Source: a virus
DNA length: 64,000 nucleotides
IMG/VR virus record: IMGVR_UViG_3300016474_000049
Location: 1 to 64,000 of that record
Strand: one strand, 5' to 3'
Position 1 is the stretch's first letter; every line of letters starts with the position of its first letter. The notes under the pieces are model-generated. The model did no database searches. It saw only the letters and a list, made by a program, of their open reading frames with translations, and was not told where the DNA came from. Of the stretch, positions 3,334 through 8,972 are shown one piece after another. A program made the translations under genes and the position numbers.

Positions 3334-3645
3334 ATGGTTACTACAAAGAAGCGCAGGGGGCGTCCCCCCAGAGCGAAGGTTGAGTACACAGTCACAGCAA
3401 TAAGCAGCAAACCTGCAAGCGCAGACACAAGGCAGGTTGGTGGTACGCACTATAAAGCAATGGGTGTGCAACCTTGGGAAGCAATGGAGACACTGCTTAC
3501 CCACGACGAGTTCCTTGGGTTCCTCAAGGGCAACATGATCAAGTACGCTATGCGTCAGGGACTCAAAGATCCTACTGATGCTGATAAGTTCCGGCACTAC
3601 AGACAGAAGTATCTTGAGGTGCTGCTCTCGCTTAATAAAGAATAG
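3334..3645 (+). CDS. DUF3310-like small phage protein
   Basis: GGTHYKAMGVQPWE...FLKGNMIKYAMR pattern resembles the DUF3310 family common in phage early regions. Starts 2 nt after the previous stop. Confidence 0.6.
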   Translation: MVTTKKRRGRPPRAKVEYTVTAISSKPASADTRQVGGTHYKAMGVQPWEAMETLLTHDEFLGFLKGNMIKYAMRQGLKDPTDADKFRHYRQKYLEVLLSLNKE

Positions 3646-3647
3646 CG

Positions 3648-3842
3648 ATGAAAGAGGGAGACCGCGTGCGGTTTCCCAACAAAGAAGAAGGCAAGGTATA
3701 CGCAATTAATGGCGATGACTTGGTCGTTCTCATTGCACAAACACCTTGGCCTTTTCCGCGTTGGGTTCACTGCAACAGGCGTGACGTTAAGTTGGTACGT
3801 GCAAGCAAAGACTTATCCGACATCGAGGAGGCACCTTACTAA
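3648..3842 (+). CDS. hypothetical protein (64 aa)
   Basis: ATG 2 nt after the upstream stop. Its stop overlaps the next start (TAATG). Confidence 0.5.
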   Translation: MKEGDRVRFPNKEEGKVYAINGDDLVVLIAQTPWPFPRWVHCNRRDVKLVRASKDLSDIEEAPY

Positions 3843-4081: not shown

Positions 4082-4849
4082 ATGGCTACAAAGAAAGTAA
4101 CAGAAGATACGATCCAAATCGTTGAGATGGAAACCCAAACGGTTACGTTCCACGTACTAGGAACTACACCGATGATCTGCAACCGTATGCCTGAGAAGGC
4201 ATGGCAGCAACTGCTTCTCCCCTCCGGTCGCAAGACTGCTGCTGAGAAAGCAGGATCAATGAAGCACGATCCGTTGGTCGAGTATCGGTCCTCACCATAC
4301 CGCATGCCGCAGGGCGATCATGCAACGGAGTTATCTGTCCTTGCTACGCAGTTCAAAGGTGCACTACGCAATGCTGCACTCGATATGCCTGGAGCTAAGA
4401 AGTCACAGATTGGTCGCTTGACTACGGTTGAGAACGAGCGTCTTGAGTTATTCGGTGTACCTAAGATCTTCTCAAGTATCACTCGGTCGGCAGACATCAA
4501 CAAGACACCTGATGTACGTACCCGTGCCATCGTGCCGAAGTGGGCATGCAAGGTTGATATTACTTATGTGCGTCCTGTGTTGAACCACACCATTATCTCT
4601 AACCTCTTTGCTACAGCAGGTATCACAATGGGTGTTGGTGATTGGAGACCTGAGAAAGGTTCGGGCAACTACGGTCGTTGGAAGATTGTCGATGCTGATG
4701 ATCCTGAGTTCTTAGCAGTAATTAAGTCAGGTGGTAAGGCAGCGCAACTCGAAGCACTGGAAAACCCAGAAGCTTATGACGATGACACTGAAGAGTTGCT
4801 TTCATGGTTCAACACAGAGACCAAGCGTCGTGGTCTCAAAGTTGCTTAA
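4082..4849 (+). CDS. hypothetical protein (255 aa)
   Basis: GAGGAA RBS upstream of the ATG. Long ORF with a Gly-rich loop near the C-terminus (GITMGVGDWRPEKGSGNYG). No family assigned. Confidence 0.7.
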   Translation: MATKKVTEDTIQIVEMETQTVTFHVLGTTPMICNRMPEKAWQQLLLPSGRKTAAEKAGSMKHDPLVEYRSSPYRMPQGDHATELSVLATQFKGALRNAALDMPGAKKSQIGRLTTVENERLELFGVPKIFSSITRSADINKTPDVRTRAIVPKWACKVDITYVRPVLNHTIISNLFATAGITMGVGDWRPEKGSGNYGRWKIVDADDPEFLAVIKSGGKAAQLEALENPEAYDDDTEELLSWFNTETKRRGLKVA

Positions 4850-4859
4850 AGGATAAAAC

Positions 4860-5324
4860 ATGGATAGAGCCGCAATCGCTAAGAGGTTAGACGAGATTGC
4901 GGCCCTCCACGGAGGGTCGCTTACACCAGACATCGTAGTAGCAGATGCTAAGAACCCATCAAGTCCTCTGCATACTTACTTTGACTGGAGTCTTGAGAGT
5001 GCAGCATATAAACATTGGGTTGAGACTGCACGTAATTTGATTGCTTCAGTTCGCGTAGTTATAACAACAGACAAGGTCGTTATCAAAGCACCCGTCTATC
5101 TGCGAGACCCAAGCAAGAAAGGCAACGAGCAAGGCTACACCACACTCACCAAGGTACGTAGCGATAAAGATCTGTCGAGAGAAGTTATCAACAACGAGGT
5201 CGCACTCATTGTTGGTGCGTTACGAAGAGCAAAGAACGTAGCGCAGGCGCTTGATATGGTGGAGGAGATGGAAGCACTGCTTGAACAAGTCTTAGTCCTA
5301 CGCAACAAGTTGGAGAAGGTTTAG
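4860..5324 (+). CDS. hypothetical protein (154 aa)
   Basis: ATG 10 nt after the upstream stop, co-oriented. The last nt of its stop TAG is the first nt of the first GGCAGG box. Confidence 0.65.
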   Translation: MDRAAIAKRLDEIAALHGGSLTPDIVVADAKNPSSPLHTYFDWSLESAAYKHWVETARNLIASVRVVITTDKVVIKAPVYLRDPSKKGNEQGYTTLTKVRSDKDLSREVINNEVALIVGALRRAKNVAQALDMVEEMEALLEQVLVLRNKLEKV

Positions 5325-5999
5325 GCAGGCATGGTTCGGTTGATGGGGTAGGGCTTTATTTGGTAAGGATGGTGAGGCAGGCTAGGTGGGGTGGGATTCG
5401 ATAGTTTGCTATGAGGTTAGATTTGGCAGGCACGGCGTGGCGTGACAGGGTACGGTCGGATTGGGTCCGGTTTAGTTTGTTTCGGCAGGTGCGGTTTAAT
5501 CAGATCAGGTTCGGAAGGGTACGGTACGGTTCGTTATGGCAGGTCCGGCGGGGCGAGATAAGGTCCGGTGGGGTGTGGTGTGGTCTGGTGTGGTCTGGCA
5601 GGCGCGGCTAGGTTCGGCGCTTACGGTTTGTTATGGTTTGTGCGGCAGGCAAGGTTAGATGGTATTTGGTTCGGCGTTTTATGGTTCGGTCGGATACGGC
5701 AGGCTAGGTGAGGTCGGGGTAGGTGTTGTATGTAAGGTCTTATCAGGCAGGCACGGTTCGGTTCGGTAGGTTGCATTTGGGTATGGTTCGGTGCGGTTCG
5801 TTTTGGCAGGTGTGGCGAATGAGGTCGGTCACGGCATGGTCGGGTTAGTCAGGCAGGCATGGTGAGGTAGAAGATGGTGCGGTATGGTCTCGTCAGGCAT
5901 GGCAGGCTAGGTTTAATCGGGTTCGATAAATTGAGTTTTGATGAGGCAGGTCAGGTGTGGTGTGGTGTTACGAGGTATGGTGGTATGGGGTTAGGCAGG
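5324..5999 (+). repeat. non-coding G+T-rich array with 14 phased GGCAGG(Y)NNGG(Y) boxes
   Basis: GGCAGG starts at 5324, 5376, 5425, 5484, 5538, 5597, 5644, 5698, 5746, 5805, 5852, 5901, 5945 and 5994, with spacings of 44-59 bp. Hand counts on two 60-nt lines gave 72% and 77% G+T on the + strand. There is no credible ORF, and the array fills the whole intergenic gap. Confidence 0.9.
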
Positions 6000-6017
6000 T
6001 AATTTATAGGAGGTTAT

Positions 6018-6245
6018 ATGGATGAGTTTGAAGCAGAACGTGCGTGGGCAGAGAAGCAGTTCTTAACTGAGTTGCGAGATGATTTTGCTATGGCAGCAAT
6101 TACTGGGATTCTTGCAGGTAAGTGGGGGCAGATGCCGCAGTACAAACCCGAAGAAGCGTTCGCTGATTTTGCGTATCGTGTAGCAGATGAAATGATTAAA
6201 CGGAGAGGTAAGCATGTCGATAATGAATCAAAACAAGATAGCTGA
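6018..6245 (+). CDS. hypothetical small protein (75 aa)
   Basis: TAGGAGG RBS at 6007-6013, ATG at 6018. First gene after the GT-rich array. Confidence 0.65.
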   Translation: MDEFEAERAWAEKQFLTELRDDFAMAAITGILAGKWGQMPQYKPEEAFADFAYRVADEMIKRRGKHVDNESKQDS

Positions 6246-6453
6246 AACACAACCCCAACCTATCTTCTACCTACACGGTGTTCCTTATCTTCCTGATTAC
6301 AGCGAGAAGCATCGTTGGATTGGGCCTGGAACTAAACATACGAGGACGGTGTACAAAACAATAGAGTTGGCAGAGGCAGGGGCAAGGTTAAGTGTTATGT
6401 CGTTATGGGCAAGATCATGGACTGAAGAAGTAAGGGGGTGGAAAGCATTATGA
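6214..6453 (+). CDS. hypothetical small protein (79 aa)
   Basis: GGAGAGG RBS at 6202-6208, ATG at 6214. Overlaps the upstream gene by 32 nt. Confidence 0.5.
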   Translation: MSIMNQNKIAETQPQPIFYLHGVPYLPDYSEKHRWIGPGTKHTRTVYKTIELAEAGARLSVMSLWARSWTEEVRGWKAL

Positions 6454-6656
6454 AACCAAAAGGTATGACAAGCGCACAGTACATTGAACTACTTGAGAAG
6501 AAATTAGAAGCATATGAGCAACGTCCCAAGCGTCCTCAGTGGGAGAACCTAGCCAACACAACGATCTATGCAGAGAGCATGCGTTGGGTTAATTCTTCGA
6601 TGTTTACAGCAGGCGCAAACTGGGCGCAACGTAGATTAAAGGAGTTGAACGAATGA
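6450..6656 (+). CDS. hypothetical small protein (68 aa)
   Basis: ATGA overlap with the upstream stop (the track start at 6438 is GTG). Confidence 0.55.
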   Translation: MKPKGMTSAQYIELLEKKLEAYEQRPKRPQWENLANTTIYAESMRWVNSSMFTAGANWAQRRLKELNE

Positions 6657-7155: not shown

Positions 7156-7487
7156 TCAAGATGACTGAGCTTTTGTATGCGCGAATGATACGCATGCTGC
7201 TTGATGGATGTACGGCATACGATATTGTTAACGAGACAGGGCTACATATTGTAACGGCGCAATCTTATTTGCGAGCACTACACAGAGAGAAAGCAGTTCA
7301 CGTCATTGGGTGGCTAAAGAACTCAAGAGGTGCGGATACTACAAAGATCTTCAAGATAGGTGAGGGTGAAGATAAACCTCGCACCATCATGACCCGTGCA
7401 GAGATTGCTAAACGCTATAAGTTTAAACAGAAGCTTAGGAAACGCATGCAACGAGAGAAATCAATTATTGAAGGGGATAGAGCATGA
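7152..7487 (+). CDS. putative HTH DNA-binding protein (111 aa)
   Basis: ATGA overlap at 7152 (the track start at 7125 is GTG). AYDIVNETGLHIVTAQSYLRAL is HTH-like. Confidence 0.45.
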   Translation: MIKMTELLYARMIRMLLDGCTAYDIVNETGLHIVTAQSYLRALHREKAVHVIGWLKNSRGADTTKIFKIGEGEDKPRTIMTRAEIAKRYKFKQKLRKRMQREKSIIEGDRA

Positions 7488-7855
7488 GCAGAGAAGCTAT
7501 TGAAGAAGCGATAGAGGTGCTGGAGGATGCAAGTGCAGAGATGTTGACGGAAACAGGCGAAGAAAATTACTACAGCGAAGCCATCGCTATTCTGCGCCAA
7601 GCACTGGAGACAGAAACTGAAGCCTTGCGGCTGGCTGATGCGCTGGACGCTGAGTTTGTGCAAGGACGAATAAGCAATAGCACGGGCAGGGAATCAGCCG
7701 TTGAACTGCGCCGGTTGCATGAGGTCAATCAGGATCTGCTGAAGGCACTCAACACGATCCTTAACATAAGCTTGATAGATAACGGGCACTGGGCCAAGAC
7801 GATAGAACGCGAGGCTCATGAAGTCATCGCCAAGGCGACTGGGGGTGAGGTATGA
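7484..7855 (+). CDS. hypothetical protein, member 1 of the MSREA...LRQALETE paralog pair
   Basis: ATGA coupling. Its N-terminal module is shared with the next gene at both protein and nucleotide level. Confidence 0.6.
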   Translation: MSREAIEEAIEVLEDASAEMLTETGEENYYSEAIAILRQALETETEALRLADALDAEFVQGRISNSTGRESAVELRRLHEVNQDLLKALNTILNISLIDNGHWAKTIEREAHEVIAKATGGEV

Positions 7856-8277
7856 GCAGAGAAGCTATGAAGCAGGCGTTAGAGGCGTTGGAAAGTGACC
7901 CAATAACTCATGCTGGATTAGTTAACAGGAAACAAGCCATCGCCGCCCTACGCCAAGCACTGGAGACAGAGCAAGAGCCGGTGGCGTGGATGCACAACTT
8001 TATTACGAATAATGTGATCACGCACATACCAGCAGATATTGGCCGTCATCCTGAGCGATGGACTGCGCTTTACAAAGACCCTACGCCGTGCAAAACATGC
8101 GAGTCACTTGCTATGGCAGTAATGAACGATCAGACATACCACGAAAAAGTAATTCCAAAGCGTGAATGGGTTGGGCTGACGGCTTATGAAATACAAGAGA
8201 TCCATTTAGGAAATCAGCACTGGGGTAATTTTGCCCGTGCCATTGAAGCCAAGCTAAAGGAACGGAATCATGGATAA
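7852..8277 (+). CDS. hypothetical protein, member 2 of the MSREA...LRQALETE paralog pair
   Basis: ATGA coupling. MSREAMKQALEALE...IAALRQALETEQEP parallels the 7484 gene. Confidence 0.6.
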   Translation: MSREAMKQALEALESDPITHAGLVNRKQAIAALRQALETEQEPVAWMHNFITNNVITHIPADIGRHPERWTALYKDPTPCKTCESLAMAVMNDQTYHEKVIPKREWVGLTAYEIQEIHLGNQHWGNFARAIEAKLKERNHG

Positions 8278-8491
8278 AGAAGACATCATCCGCATAGCGC
8301 GGGAGGCGGGATTGGCTTACGGATCTGACGAAAAGCCATTAGGTTCTGTAACACGCTTCGCTGCCCTTGTTGCCGCGCATGAGCGTGAGGTGTGTGCGAA
8401 GGTGTGTGATGTTCTTGCTGTACATCCTGAATATGCGTCAGACATTACAAAGGTGGCCGCGCAAGCAATCCGAGCAAGGGGAAACAAATGA
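8270..8491 (+). CDS. hypothetical protein with HERE(V/A)CAKVC...AIRARG motif (paralog 1 of 3)
   Basis: The shared C-terminal motif set recurs in the next two genes. Nucleotides 8354-8411 match 8590-8647 with about 5 mismatches in 58. Confidence 0.6.
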   Translation: MDKEDIIRIAREAGLAYGSDEKPLGSVTRFAALVAAHEREVCAKVCDVLAVHPEYASDITKVAAQAIRARGNK

Positions 8492-8736
8492 ACCGCGAAC
8501 AAATAATCGGAATGGCGCGGGAGGCTGGGTTTGAAGTTTACGGAACCGATGTATGGATAACCGATGGCTGGTGGCTAGAGGAACTTGAACGCTTCGCTGC
8601 CCTTGTCGCCAAGCATGAGCGTGAGGCGTGTGCGAAGGTGTGTGACGCTGTGCAGAAAAAGAACGAAGACGACGGAGCATGGATGTGGGAAGCGAGAAAC
8701 TGCGCCGCTGCCATACGAGCAAGGGGGGAGAAATGA
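8488..8736 (+). CDS. hypothetical protein with HEREACAKVC...AIRARG motif (paralog 2 of 3)
   Basis: ATGA coupling. Motifs RFAALVAKHEREACAKVCD and AAAIRARGEK. Confidence 0.6.
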   Translation: MNREQIIGMAREAGFEVYGTDVWITDGWWLEELERFAALVAKHEREACAKVCDAVQKKNEDDGAWMWEARNCAAAIRARGEK

Positions 8737-8972
8737 GCGGTGATCACAACATGTTTCAGAAGCCAAGATCCTATGACGATGACACTCAATACGATGAGGC
8801 ACAAGTGCAAGCCATGATCAGGAAGGCTGTGCGCGACGAACGCGAGGCGTGTGCGAAGGTGTGTGAGGGGCTTGGGGTGCATCCGGCATTGAATGTATTT
8901 AATGGTGGCCCTGAGTGGTACAAGCATGGAAAAGACTGCGCCGCCGCTATACGAGCAAGGAGTGGGAAATGA
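8733..8972 (+). CDS. hypothetical protein with DEREACAKVC...AIRARS motif (paralog 3 of 3), MSGDHN N-terminus
   Basis: ATGA overlap at 8733 with AAGGGGGGAG upstream (the track start at 8679 is less likely). Its N-terminal MSGDHNMFQK is shared with the next gene. Confidence 0.55.
   Translation: MSGDHNMFQKPRSYDDDTQYDEAQVQAMIRKAVRDEREACAKVCEGLGVHPALNVFNGGPEWYKHGKDCAAAIRARSGK

What the first reader, a model, noticed from the sequence alone, without database searches (positions are those of the whole stretch)
5324..5999. 676-bp non-coding, strand-asymmetric G+T-rich array with 14 phased GGCAGG boxes
Seen directly in the sequence:
- The whole gap between the stop of gene 4860..5324 and the RBS of gene 6018 is filled by a sequence that is about three-quarters G+T on the + strand. 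Two 60-nt lines counted by hand gave 72% and 77%.
- It carries 14 copies of GGCAGG, extended consensus GGCAGG(C/T)NNGG(T/C), at 5324, 5376, 5425, 5484, 5538, 5597, 5644, 5698, 5746, 5805, 5852, 5901, 5945 and 5994.
- Spacings are 52, 49, 59, 54, 59, 47, 54, 48, 59, 47, 49, 44 and 49 bp, a mean of about 51.5 bp or roughly five helical turns.
- Between boxes the sequence is not conserved, but it keeps the same composition. It shows stretches of 5-nt phasing of GG(T/C)NN, for example GGTTCGGTTCGGTAGG at 5755-5770 and GGTGGGGTGTGGTGTGGTCTGGTGTGGTCTGG at 5567-5598.
- The first box starts on the last base of the upstream stop codon. The last box ends 8 nt before the downstream RBS.
- I see no terminator or sigma70 promoter inside. 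It is therefore probably co-transcribed with the flanking genes as a G/U-rich, C-poor RNA, while the opposite strand would be C-rich and G-poor.

I know of no standard phage feature with this combination of traits. Hypotheses:
1. A phased protein-loading array on one DNA face, of iteron, centromere or nucleoprotein-scaffold type.
2. A long G/U-rich RNA acting as a decoy for, or wrapped around, an oligomeric RNA-binding protein. The 5-nt triplet phasing is reminiscent of the way TRAP-type rings read spaced triplets.
3. A G-quadruplex or R-loop-prone start site for the AEP primase.
4. An orientation-specific Rho insulator.
Basis: partly seen in the sequence, partly recalled or inferred. Interest (0 to 1): 0.85.

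Follow-up and report, generated by a model that had tools for sequence, protein, structure and literature searches.

The report
Phage VIPR guide-RNA array
The G+T-rich "non-coding" stretch is an array of about 13 back-to-back guide RNAs made of GGYNN five-base repeats, sitting behind the gene for a small Cas7-like protein: it belongs to the VIPR RNA-guided DNA-silencing systems of phages, first described in two 2026 preprints, so it is real and interesting but already explained.

Summary
Window 5324-5999 has 14 GGCAGG boxes (1.3 expected), 71% G+T, and local 5-nt GG phasing (z=8.6). The 51-bp "helical" spacing is a red herring: spacings are quantised as 5n+4, meaning GGCA followed by n GGYNN pentamers.

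Across 171 box contexts from 13 related phage arrays, GGY is conserved and the NN columns are nearly random. The gene two upstream (4082-4849, 255 aa) models as a Cas7-type RAMP: all of the top 50 PDB fold hits are Csm3, Cas7-11 or Cmr4. It shares the GVGDWRP G-loop and thumb arginine that bind GG in the cryo-EM structure of the phage SUSP1 Vipr protein.

Gene, partner gene (4860-5324) and array travel together in about 40 metagenomic phages, and also in mycobacteriophage Quico and cyanophage Cy-LDV1.

This matches the VIPR system (bioRxiv 10.64898/2026.04.26.720920 and .720927), in its tail-less "staggered" array form. There, Vipr forms a filament on the RNA, hides GGY and uses the NN bases to read DNA with a one-base skip.

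No convincing target was found. Expression and processing are untested.

Verdict: new member of a known, very recent kind.

The parts
4082..4849 (+). vipr: 255-aa Cas7-like minimal RAMP protein (candidate Vipr), phrog_4652
   Evidence: The AF2 model has pLDDT 81 and pTM 0.77. All top 50 Foldseek PDB hits are Cas7-family RAMPs (Csm3, Cas7-11, type VII Cas7, Cmr4), with prob 0.98-1.00 and E from 4e-5. hhalign to SUSP1 Vipr gives prob 90% and E 1.5e-6, with a shared GVGDWRP G-loop. R148, D187 and R189 are invariant and W188 nearly invariant (>=90%) in 30 homologues. They align to SUSP1 R138, D177, W178 and R179, which bind GG in the cryo-EM structure.
4860..5324 (+). vap: 154-aa accessory gene (candidate Vipr-accessory protein), phrog_15946, function unknown
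   Evidence: It always follows the vipr homologue in L001-L015 and L031. Homologues also sit next to Vipr homologues in mycobacteriophage Quico (gp58) and cyanophage Cy-LDV1 (g33). It is not homologous to SUSP1 vap1. The AF2 model is poor and gives no meaningful fold match.
5324..5999 (+). vrRNA array: 13 back-to-back units plus a terminal box; each unit is GGCA followed by 8-11 GGYNN pentamers
5324..5375 (+). unit 1 (52 nt, internal phase slips); identical unit in L001 and L005
5376..5424 (+). unit 2 (49 nt, 9 pentamers); NN = TA GG GG TC AG GC GA TA TT. Variants in L001 and L005 differ only at GGY positions
5425..5483 (+). unit 3 (59 nt, 11 pentamers); no counterpart at >=85% identity in the 12 relatives
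5484..5537 (+). unit 4 (54 nt, 10 pentamers); no counterpart in relatives
5538..5596 (+). unit 5 (59 nt, 11 pentamers; contains the longest clean tract, 8 x YNNGG at 5559-5598). The L005 variant keeps 10 of 11 NN
5597..5643 (+). unit 6 (47 nt, phase slips); no counterpart in relatives
5644..5697 (+). unit 7 (54 nt, 10 pentamers); shared with L006 and L008
5698..5745 (+). unit 8 (48 nt, one slip); the most widely shared unit, present in 9 of 12 relatives
5746..5804 (+). unit 9 (59 nt, 11 pentamers); identical in L001 and L012. The L007 variant keeps all 10 shared NN
5805..5851 (+). unit 10 (47 nt, slips); shared with L001, L003, L005 and L012
5852..5900 (+). unit 11 (49 nt, 9 pentamers); no counterpart in relatives
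5901..5944 (+). unit 12 (44 nt, 8 pentamers); no counterpart in relatives
5945..5993 (+). unit 13 (49 nt, 9 pentamers). All 9 NN are conserved in the L005 and L012 variants while GGY positions mutate
5994..5999 (+). terminal GGCAGG box closing the array, about 10 nt before the AGGAGG RBS of gene 6018-6245
   Evidence: the same terminal context occurs in L001 and L005

Best explanation
Window 4082-5999 is a VIPR (Viral Interference Programmable Repeat) locus, made of vipr (4082-4849), vap (4860-5324) and a 'staggered' array of 13 vrRNAs (5324-5999).

Proposed mechanism; the steps are inferred from the SUSP1 and P. fulva work and none was shown for this locus:
1. The array is transcribed with the early + strand operon.
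2. It yields guide RNAs of about 45-60 nt, each consisting of 9-12 YNNGG pentamers.
3. One Vipr protomer binds per pentamer and the protomers form a helical filament.
4. The G-loop (D187-W188-R189) and the thumb arginine (R148) sequester each GGY, leaving the two variable NN bases exposed.
5. The NN dinucleotides read a double-stranded DNA target as NNxNNxNN..., skipping one base per repeat, and the bound filament silences transcription.
6. The likely targets are competing phages, prophages or satellites in the same host.

The invariant GGCAGG is the junction where two pentamer registers overlap by one G: the upstream unit ends ...TNNGG, and the downstream unit starts GCAGG on that same G. This produces the 5n+4 spacing. 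The junction presumably marks the unit boundary or processing site, taking the place of the structured 3' tail seen in type II VIPR.
For: Shown here:
- The pentamer architecture is GGCA + (GGYNN)n, with 5n+4 quantisation.
- In the logo, GG carries 0.3-1.5 bits and Y 0.35-1.35 bits, while NN carries 0.02-0.22 bits. The phase holds on both sides of the box, with a -1 slip at the box.
- (YNNGG)>=4, the preprint's own detection criterion, occurs only here in the 64 kb and only on the + strand.
- The 255-aa protein folds as a Cas7-type RAMP.
- It aligns to the experimentally characterised SUSP1 Vipr over the G-loop and thumb, with the GG-binding residues conserved.
- The locus is a two-gene operon with no cas genes and no CRISPR repeat.
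- The trio of Vipr homologue, Vap homologue and + strand YNNGG array with GGCAGG boxes recurs in 15 close loci, in most of 23 distant IMG/VR loci (46-72% aa identity), in a high-GC relative where the filler is GGCNN instead of GGTNN, and in Quico and Cy-LDV1.
- In orthologous units the NN positions change less (6.6%) than the GGY positions (9-13%), and 17 of 18 variable Y columns show only C and T. In units 2, 9 and 13 all compared NN are conserved while GGY positions mutate.
- Unit content turns over faster than the flanking genes. At 94% nt identity of vipr+vap only 5-6 of 13 units are shared, and none is shared at <=86%.
- No self-target exists in the window, as the preprint also reports for its systems.

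From the literature:
- System definition, the 1-nt skip rule, and staggered arrays whose vrRNAs overlap by 1 nt.
- Filament structure and GGY recognition.
Against: - There is no expression, processing or binding data for this locus.
- No convincing natural target was found. Exact 1-nt-skip scans with five units (5376, 5484, 5538, 5746, 5945) gave nothing in IMG/VR except one chance-level hit. Hits in genomes and metagenomes were scattered and chance-like, including a plant copia gag gene. A positive control with SUSP1 vrRNA1 also found nothing in IMG/VR, so these negatives say little.
- There is no structured 3' tail (fold z = -0.76), unlike the only biochemically characterised type.
- According to the preprint text, staggered arrays were not among the architectures confirmed by sRNA-seq.
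- About a third of pentamers are degenerate (GA, AG and similar), and 5 of 13 units carry internal phase slips.
- Vap is unrelated to SUSP1 vap1.
- Both source papers are preprints.
Confidence: 0.88

Rival explanations
1. It is a genuine VIPR array, but the guides act on the bacterial host chromosome (for example defence or stress genes) or on RNA, rather than on competing mobile elements. The 1-nt skip rule may also not hold for this clade.
For: No target in viral collections was found for five units. The skip rule was established only for type II systems. This Vipr is 60 aa longer than SUSP1's and carries a C-terminal helical extension. Its Vap is unrelated to vap1.
Against: The host is unknown, so host targeting could not be tested. 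The single scan of 185,579 species genomes gave only scattered hits in unrelated MAGs. The GG-binding residues that set the geometry are conserved. The exact-match scans have low sensitivity, since the SUSP1 control also failed.
Confidence: 0.07
2. It is a double-stranded DNA protein-loading array (iteron, centromere or packaging type) in which GGCAGG boxes about 50 bp apart are bound by the 154-aa protein.
For: The boxes are regularly spaced and invariant. The adjacent 154-aa protein was labelled as a TrmB-like regulator by one source.
Against: - Only 6 nt are conserved per unit, and the spacing varies from 44 to 64 in 5-nt steps, which would rotate sites by half a helical turn.
- The informative signal is a strand-specific GGY/NN pentamer code, not a palindrome or a long repeat.
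- The array co-varies with a RAMP RNA-binding protein.
- Array length ranges from 0.4 to 2.4 kb, and unit content turns over rapidly.
- In Quico the array lies upstream of the gene pair, and in L031 the module sits in a different genomic context.
Confidence: 0.02
3. It is a G-rich non-template strand element that forms R-loops or two-tetrad G-quadruplexes when transcribed. This would prime replication or block antisense transcription through Rho acting on the C-rich antisense RNA.
For: The strand has 42% G against 13% C, and GGNNN repeats could form two-quartet G4s. The element lies upstream of the polymerase, helicase and primase genes. By composition, an antisense RNA would be C-rich and G-poor.
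Against: This explains neither the conserved pyrimidine at position 3, nor the random-looking NN that are conserved within orthologous units, nor the invariant GGCA junction, nor the obligatory RAMP partner. In L031 the array is not near replication genes. In high-GC relatives the skew is weaker but the GGY/NN code persists.
Confidence: 0.02
4. It is an RNA sponge or decoy that titrates a host RNA-binding protein such as CsrA, Hfq or a TRAP-like ring.
For: It is a long, repetitive, unstructured G/U-rich RNA with 5-nt triplet phasing.
Against: GGA motifs are rare. No Rfam family matches, CsrB/RsmZ-type sponge RNAs included. A cognate phage-encoded RNA-binding protein with conserved GG-binding residues is encoded in cis. 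Hypervariable NN that are conserved within orthologous units imply information content, which a sponge does not need.
Confidence: 0.01

Closest known systems
VIPR systems, 'staggered' vrRNA array architecture (bioRxiv 10.64898/2026.04.26.720920, Fig. S18 legend)
   Same: - A phage-encoded two-gene vipr-vap operon.
- A Cas7-like minimal RAMP with the GVGDWRP G-loop.
- vrRNAs built of about 9-12 YNNGG pentamers, with conserved GGY and hypervariable NN.
- Adjacent vrRNAs abut and overlap by 1 nt, which reproduces the 5n+4 spacing seen here.
- No self-targeting.
   Different: - The figure, type assignment and sequences of the published staggered arrays are not available to me, so identity of clade and of the GGCAGG junction could not be checked.
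- By the preprint's wording, the staggered architecture was not among those confirmed by sRNA-seq.
- This locus has 13 units, and relatives have 8-24 or more.
Type II VIPR of Escherichia phage SUSP1 (experimentally characterised; L057 27.5-29.5 kb)
   Same: - The same gene order: vipr, then vap, then a downstream array.
- The same pentamer code (for example GGTAA GGTGT GGTTC GGTAA GGTGC in SUSP1 vrRNA1).
- Conserved GG-binding residues.
   Different: - SUSP1 vrRNAs are about 100 nt and are separated by a conserved leader and a pseudoknotted 3' tail. Here there is no tail and no spacer, only the GGCA junction.
- SUSP1 has 1 upstream and 3 downstream vrRNAs, against 13 here.
- Its Vipr is 195 aa against 255 aa here.
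- The Vap proteins are unrelated.
Class 1 CRISPR-Cas crRNA/Cas7 backbone filaments (Csm3, Cmr4, Cas7-11)
   Same: The protein fold is the same: RRM core, G-rich loop and thumb. Both form a periodic protein filament on a guide RNA with bases flipped at fixed intervals. Both have an array of many different guides that turns over between related genomes.
   Different: - The periodicity is 5 nt with three sequestered bases, not 6 nt with one flipped base.
- The guide information is interleaved with the repeat rather than placed in a contiguous spacer.
- There are no cas1/cas2 genes, no Cas6, no long direct repeats and no Rfam CRISPR-DR match above threshold.
- The system is encoded by a phage.
TRAP-binding RNA of Bacillus trp leader (11 (G/U)AG triplets spaced by 2-3 nt)
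   Same: Triplets at a spacing of about 5 nt are each read by one subunit of a protein oligomer; here this comparison is from memory only.
   Different: The protein here is a RAMP filament rather than an 11-mer ring. The triplet is GGY rather than (G/U)AG. The spacer dinucleotides carry the function (target pairing) instead of being inert. The arrays are far longer.

Membership tests
VIPR system | Vipr protein with a minimal RAMP fold (RRM core, glycine-rich loop, thumb) | tested here: met
   The AF2 model has pLDDT 81. All top 50 Foldseek PDB hits are Cas7-family RAMPs, with prob 0.98-1.00. An invariant GVGDWRPEKGSG loop is present.
VIPR system | Homology to an experimentally validated Vipr, including the GGY-recognition residues (SUSP1 R138, D177, W178, R179) | tested here: met
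   hhalign of the 30-sequence profile against SUSP1 Vipr gives prob 90% and E 1.5e-6 over 51 columns. R148, D187, W188 and R189 align to R138, D177, W178 and R179 and are invariant or nearly invariant in the family. The N-terminal H17 equivalent was not aligned.
VIPR system | Minimal locus of vipr plus one vap gene, with no cas genes and no CRISPR array, usually phage-encoded | tested here: met
   The ORF map and family scans show this layout. There is no CRISPR-DR hit above threshold. The window is a phage genome with terminase, portal, DNA polymerase and primase genes.
VIPR system | Flanking intergenic RNA with >=4 tandem YNNGG repeats, and 9-16 repeats per vrRNA | tested here: met
   The units contain 8-11 pentamers after GGCA, or 9-12 if the GCAGG junction pentamer is counted. 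Strict (YNNGG)>=4 tracts occur at 5559-5598 and 5777-5796 only, on the + strand only. There are 14 tracts of (GGYNN)>=3.
VIPR system | GGY conserved and NN hypervariable | tested here: met
   In the logo of 171 contexts, NN columns carry 0.02-0.22 bits and GGY columns 0.3-1.5 bits. Within the window, pentamer positions 1-3 are G 85%, G 69% and Y 98%, while positions 4-5 are near uniform. NN are conserved within orthologous units.
VIPR system | Invariant structured 3' tail after the repeat tract (type II architecture) | tested here: not met
   There is no conserved segment other than GGCA(GG). The array RNA folds no better than shuffles (z = -0.76). The locus is therefore not type II-like in architecture.
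VIPR system | Alternative 'staggered' architecture: adjacent vrRNAs overlap by 1 nt and no spacer separates them | tested here: met
   Unit lengths follow 5n+4. The upstream register ends TNNGG on the same G that starts the downstream GCAGG. The wording of the Fig. S18 legend matches this. The published example itself was not available for comparison.
VIPR system | vrRNAs are expressed, processed and co-purify with Vipr | not testable with these tools
   This requires sRNA-seq and a pull-down.
VIPR system | NN dinucleotides match natural DNA targets under the 1-nt skip rule, typically in competing phages, prophages or satellites, with no self-target | tested here: inconclusive
   There is no self-target (best 17/22, at control level) and none in 515 kb of related loci. 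Exact scans found 0 hits in IMG/VR for four units and 1 chance-level hit for a fifth. Hits in genomes and metagenomes are scattered. The SUSP1 positive control also gave 0.
CRISPR array | Direct repeats of about 23-50 nt alternating with unique spacers of similar length, with cas genes nearby | tested here: not met
   The conserved element is 6 nt. The only Rfam CRISPR-DR hit (16 bits against a 35-bit threshold) lies in the vap gene, not in the array. No cas genes other than the lone RAMP are present.
Iteron / plasmid-type centromere array | Tandem repeats conserved over >=10-20 bp at fixed helical phasing, bound by a Rep or ParB/ParR-type protein encoded nearby | tested here: not met
   Only 6 nt are conserved and the spacing is 44-64 in 5-nt steps. 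No Rep or Par family hit was found in the flanking genes.

The most novel reading that the evidence does not exclude
In this clade the tail-less, GGCAGG-punctuated array works differently from the characterised type II systems. The one-base register slip at GGCA(GG) would itself be the punctuation that ends one Vipr filament and starts the next. It might also be a site where Vipr or Vap, rather than a host RNase, cuts the transcript. The very fast gain, loss and reshuffling of units between phages that are 94% identical would then reflect a dedicated, recombination-based way of exchanging or generating guides. That would be a phage-borne, CRISPR-like 'repertoire' mechanism not yet described.
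Probability: 0.15. Interest if true: 0.8.

Novelty: new member of a known kind. Interest (0 to 1): 0.45.

Why it matters
VIPR is a newly reported mode of RNA-guided DNA recognition, proposed to be ancestral to the CRISPR RAMPs.

This locus adds a large 13-guide array in an apparently lytic ~64-kb phage. It comes with a ready comparative series: at least 13 related arrays holding 131 distinct units. That series gives evolutionary support, independent of experiments, for the 'NN carries the information' model: NN are random between units but conserved within orthologous units while GGY drifts.

The series also documents the tail-less staggered architecture, with a precise junction model (GG|CAGG, one shared G). 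That architecture has apparently not been validated experimentally. The same GGCAGG-punctuated arrays sit unannotated in cluster-F-type mycobacteriophages such as Quico and in a cyanophage. These are culturable or sequenced systems in which the mechanism could be tested.

Tried and rejected
- Rfam scan of 4800-6500 at E<=10: only two sub-threshold chance hits outside the array.
- megablast and blastn of the locus and the array against 50,697 phage records: no match.
- phmmer of both flanking proteins against PDB sequences: nothing. Pfam gave nothing for either protein, and PHROGs gave only families of unknown function.
- Ideas considered from memory and dropped once the GGY/NN code and the RAMP partner were seen:
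  - Chi-like RecBCD sites;
  - RfaH ops;
  - an SD-like ribosome sponge;
  - an Ig-switch-region-like R-loop element, since 49-bp units built of pentamers look strikingly similar;
  - T7-type primase sites;
  - a TerS pac site.
- Global Fourier power at period 5 looked negative until the -1 slip per box was recognised. The autocorrelation is decisive.
[quoted passage not shown] - all fetched loci, with skip 0-3 compared and no rule standing out;
  - five IMG/VR scans with window units;
  - one scan of genomes and one of metagenomes.
  The hits were a plant Ty1/copia gag gene, a GH25 lysin, scattered MAG genes, and one phage tail gene in which the skipped base is codon position 1. All are at the level expected by chance for 18-20 specified bases.
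- The SUSP1 vrRNA1 positive control in IMG/VR also failed, so exact scans cannot exclude targets.
- Vap structure: the AF2 model has pLDDT 66 and the Foldseek hits are meaningless. There is no similarity to SUSP1 vap1.
Full report
**1.
- Base composition is G 42%, T 29%, A 15.5%, C 13%, in a window that is otherwise about 25% each.
- Dinucleotide-preserving shuffles give 1.28 +/- 1.08 boxes, with a maximum of 6 in 2000.
- The GG dinucleotide autocorrelates at lags 5, 10 and 15 with z = 8.6, 6.0 and 4.8.
- No promoter-like site lies inside, and only one weak hairpin that depends on G-T pairs.
- The array runs from the last base of the stop codon of 4860-5324 to just before the RBS of 6018.

**2. 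Anatomy.**
- Cutting each unit after GGCA and then into fives shows the real architecture: GGCA followed by 8-11 pentamers of the form GGYNN.
- The mean spacing of about 51 bp is therefore incidental.
- In 13 related arrays, unit lengths cluster at 44/49/54/59/64, that is 5n+4, in 99 of 166 units. The rest are explained by internal 1-2-nt slips.
- A logo over 171 distinct box contexts shows the G-G-Y-N-N period on both sides of the box. The NN columns carry 0.02-0.22 bits and the GGY columns 0.3-1.5 bits.
- The upstream register ends TNNGG on the very G that begins the downstream GCAGG, so the two registers overlap by one base.
- The RNA has no secondary structure beyond what its composition gives (z = -0.76).
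- No Rfam family matches.

**3. Relatives.**
- Cultured-phage databases hold no DNA match.
- The two upstream proteins retrieve 15 close and about 23 distant IMG/VR loci.
- Every close relative has a G+T-rich array at the same place, with 9-24 boxes.
- Distant relatives (46-72% aa identity) keep + strand YNNGG tracts and GGCAGG boxes.
- One is a high-GC phage in which the filler is GGCNN. There the array is followed by convergent structural genes, so it belongs with the upstream gene pair and not with the replication genes.
- The same gene pair and GGCAGG-punctuated pentamer arrays occur in mycobacteriophage Quico, upstream of gp57/gp58. In cyanophage Cy-LDV1 they lie on both sides of g33.

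**4. The protein partner.**
- The 255-aa product of 4082-4849 has no Pfam or PDB sequence match.
- It belongs to a family of about 2000 proteins with an invariant GVGDWRPEKGSG loop.
- Its AlphaFold model (pLDDT 81) matches only Cas7-family RAMPs among the top 50 PDB hits: Csm3, Cas7-11/gRAMP, type VII Cas7 and Cmr4, all at probability 0.98-1.00.

**5. Identification.**
- A literature search for pentanucleotide repeats in phages found a June 2026 preprint describing VIPR systems. These consist of a phage-encoded minimal RAMP (Vipr), an accessory gene (vap), and vrRNAs made of 9-16 YNNGG repeats.
- In these vrRNAs GGY is conserved and NN hypervariable. The NN dinucleotides read double-stranded DNA with one skipped base per repeat and silence transcription of competing phages, prophages and satellites.
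- A companion cryo-EM preprint shows one protomer bound per repeat. G1 and G2 are held by H17, D177, R138 and W178, and Y3 by R179.
- I fetched the SUSP1 locus. It has the same gene order and the same pentamer code.
- A profile of the window protein's family aligns to SUSP1 Vipr (prob 90%, E 1.5e-6). R148, D187, W188 and R189 fall on R138, D177, W178 and R179.
- The preprint also lists 'staggered arrays' in which neighbouring vrRNAs overlap by 1 nt. That is exactly what the 5n+4 spacing and the shared G imply.
- The window locus therefore passes every sequence-level membership test for VIPR. It fails only the type II feature of a structured 3' tail, which it replaces with the staggered junction.

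**6. Evolutionary support for the guide model.**
- Between different units the NN positions look random.
- Within 19 families of orthologous units from related phages, however, NN columns vary less (24 of 362) than GGY columns (58 of 543). In 17 of 18 variable Y columns only C and T occur.
- In units 2, 9 and 13, every compared NN is conserved across three or four phages while G-to-A or C/T changes accumulate in the scaffold.
- Unit content turns over quickly. At 94% nucleotide identity of vipr+vap only 5-6 of the 13 units have a counterpart, and at <=86% none does. Five units are unique to this window.

**7. What remains open.**
- No natural target was found.
- There is no self-target and none in 515 kb of related loci.
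- Exact NNx scans of public collections gave nothing, or hits indistinguishable from chance. These were a plant copia gag gene, a lysin, scattered MAG genes, and one phage tail gene hit in the wrong codon phase.
- A positive control with SUSP1 vrRNA1 also found nothing in IMG/VR. These negatives therefore reflect the limits of exact matching and database coverage.
- Expression, processing at the GGCAGG junction, binding and silencing are inferred, not shown.
- The Vap protein is unrelated to SUSP1 vap1 and its fold is unresolved.
- The VIPR type could not be assigned, because the preprint's supplementary data are not held.

**8. Verdict.**
- The DNA-array, origin and Rho-insulator ideas are not supported.
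- The feature is a VIPR vrRNA array with its vipr and vap genes: a new, uncharacterised member of a kind described only months ago, in the less studied staggered architecture.

Noticed in passing
L055 (Mycobacterium phage Quico NC_028751) 1925-2190, upstream of QUICO_57/58: A (GGCNN)n array with GGCAGG boxes fills the ~400-bp gap before gp57 (Vipr homologue, 28% id) and gp58 (Vap homologue, 30% id); both are annotated as hypothetical. The same gene pair is present in about 25 Cheoctovirus-type mycobacteriophage records and several Gordonia phages. These are culturable systems in which this VIPR clade could be tested.
   Followed up: partly
L056 (Cyanophage Cy-LDV1 BK059895) 2700-2905 and 3505-3665: GGCAGG-punctuated GGCNN arrays lie on both sides of g33 (Vap homologue), downstream of g34. 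They sit next to an excisionase and a bet/exo recombination module.
   Followed up: partly
L051 6386-8802 (IMGVR_UViG_3300036826_000261): A distant relative (46% aa identity of Vipr) carries a ~2.4-kb array with about 30 GGCAGG boxes and 38 YNNGG tracts. This is far longer than the arrays in the other loci.
   Followed up: no
window 5324-5375, 5597-5643, 5698-5745, 5805-5851: Several units contain internal 4-nt 'slip' elements (for example ATGA, GTAA, GTCA) that resemble the GGCA junction and give 5n+3 or 5n+2 lengths. These slips are conserved in relatives (unit 8 is in 9 of 12 arrays), so they may be functional sub-boundaries rather than decay.
   Followed up: no
window 7484-8277 and 8270-8972: There are runs of tandem paralogous small genes. 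Two products start MSREA...LRQALETE (7484-7855, 7852-8277). Three share ...FAALVA.HERE.CAKVCD...AAAIRARG (8270-8491, 8488-8736, 8679-8972).
   Followed up: no
L066, L068, L070, L073-L076 (metagenomes Ga0123341/Ga0123342): The NNx pattern of unit 5 matches 10 of 11 NN in a plant Ty1/copia-type gag gene (..HPGENPGVVLVTPQLDGSNYHSW..), which is clearly a chance hit. By a binomial estimate, a match of >=80% of NN for an 11-repeat guide is expected thousands of times by chance in a database of 10^11 bases. The 80% threshold used for IMG/VR targets in the preprint therefore needs shuffled controls.
   Followed up: partly
L031 6257-7100: In a high-GC relative the vipr-vap-array module abuts convergent head genes (prohead protease, portal) instead of early or replication genes. 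The three-part module therefore moves as a cassette between genome contexts.
   Followed up: partly
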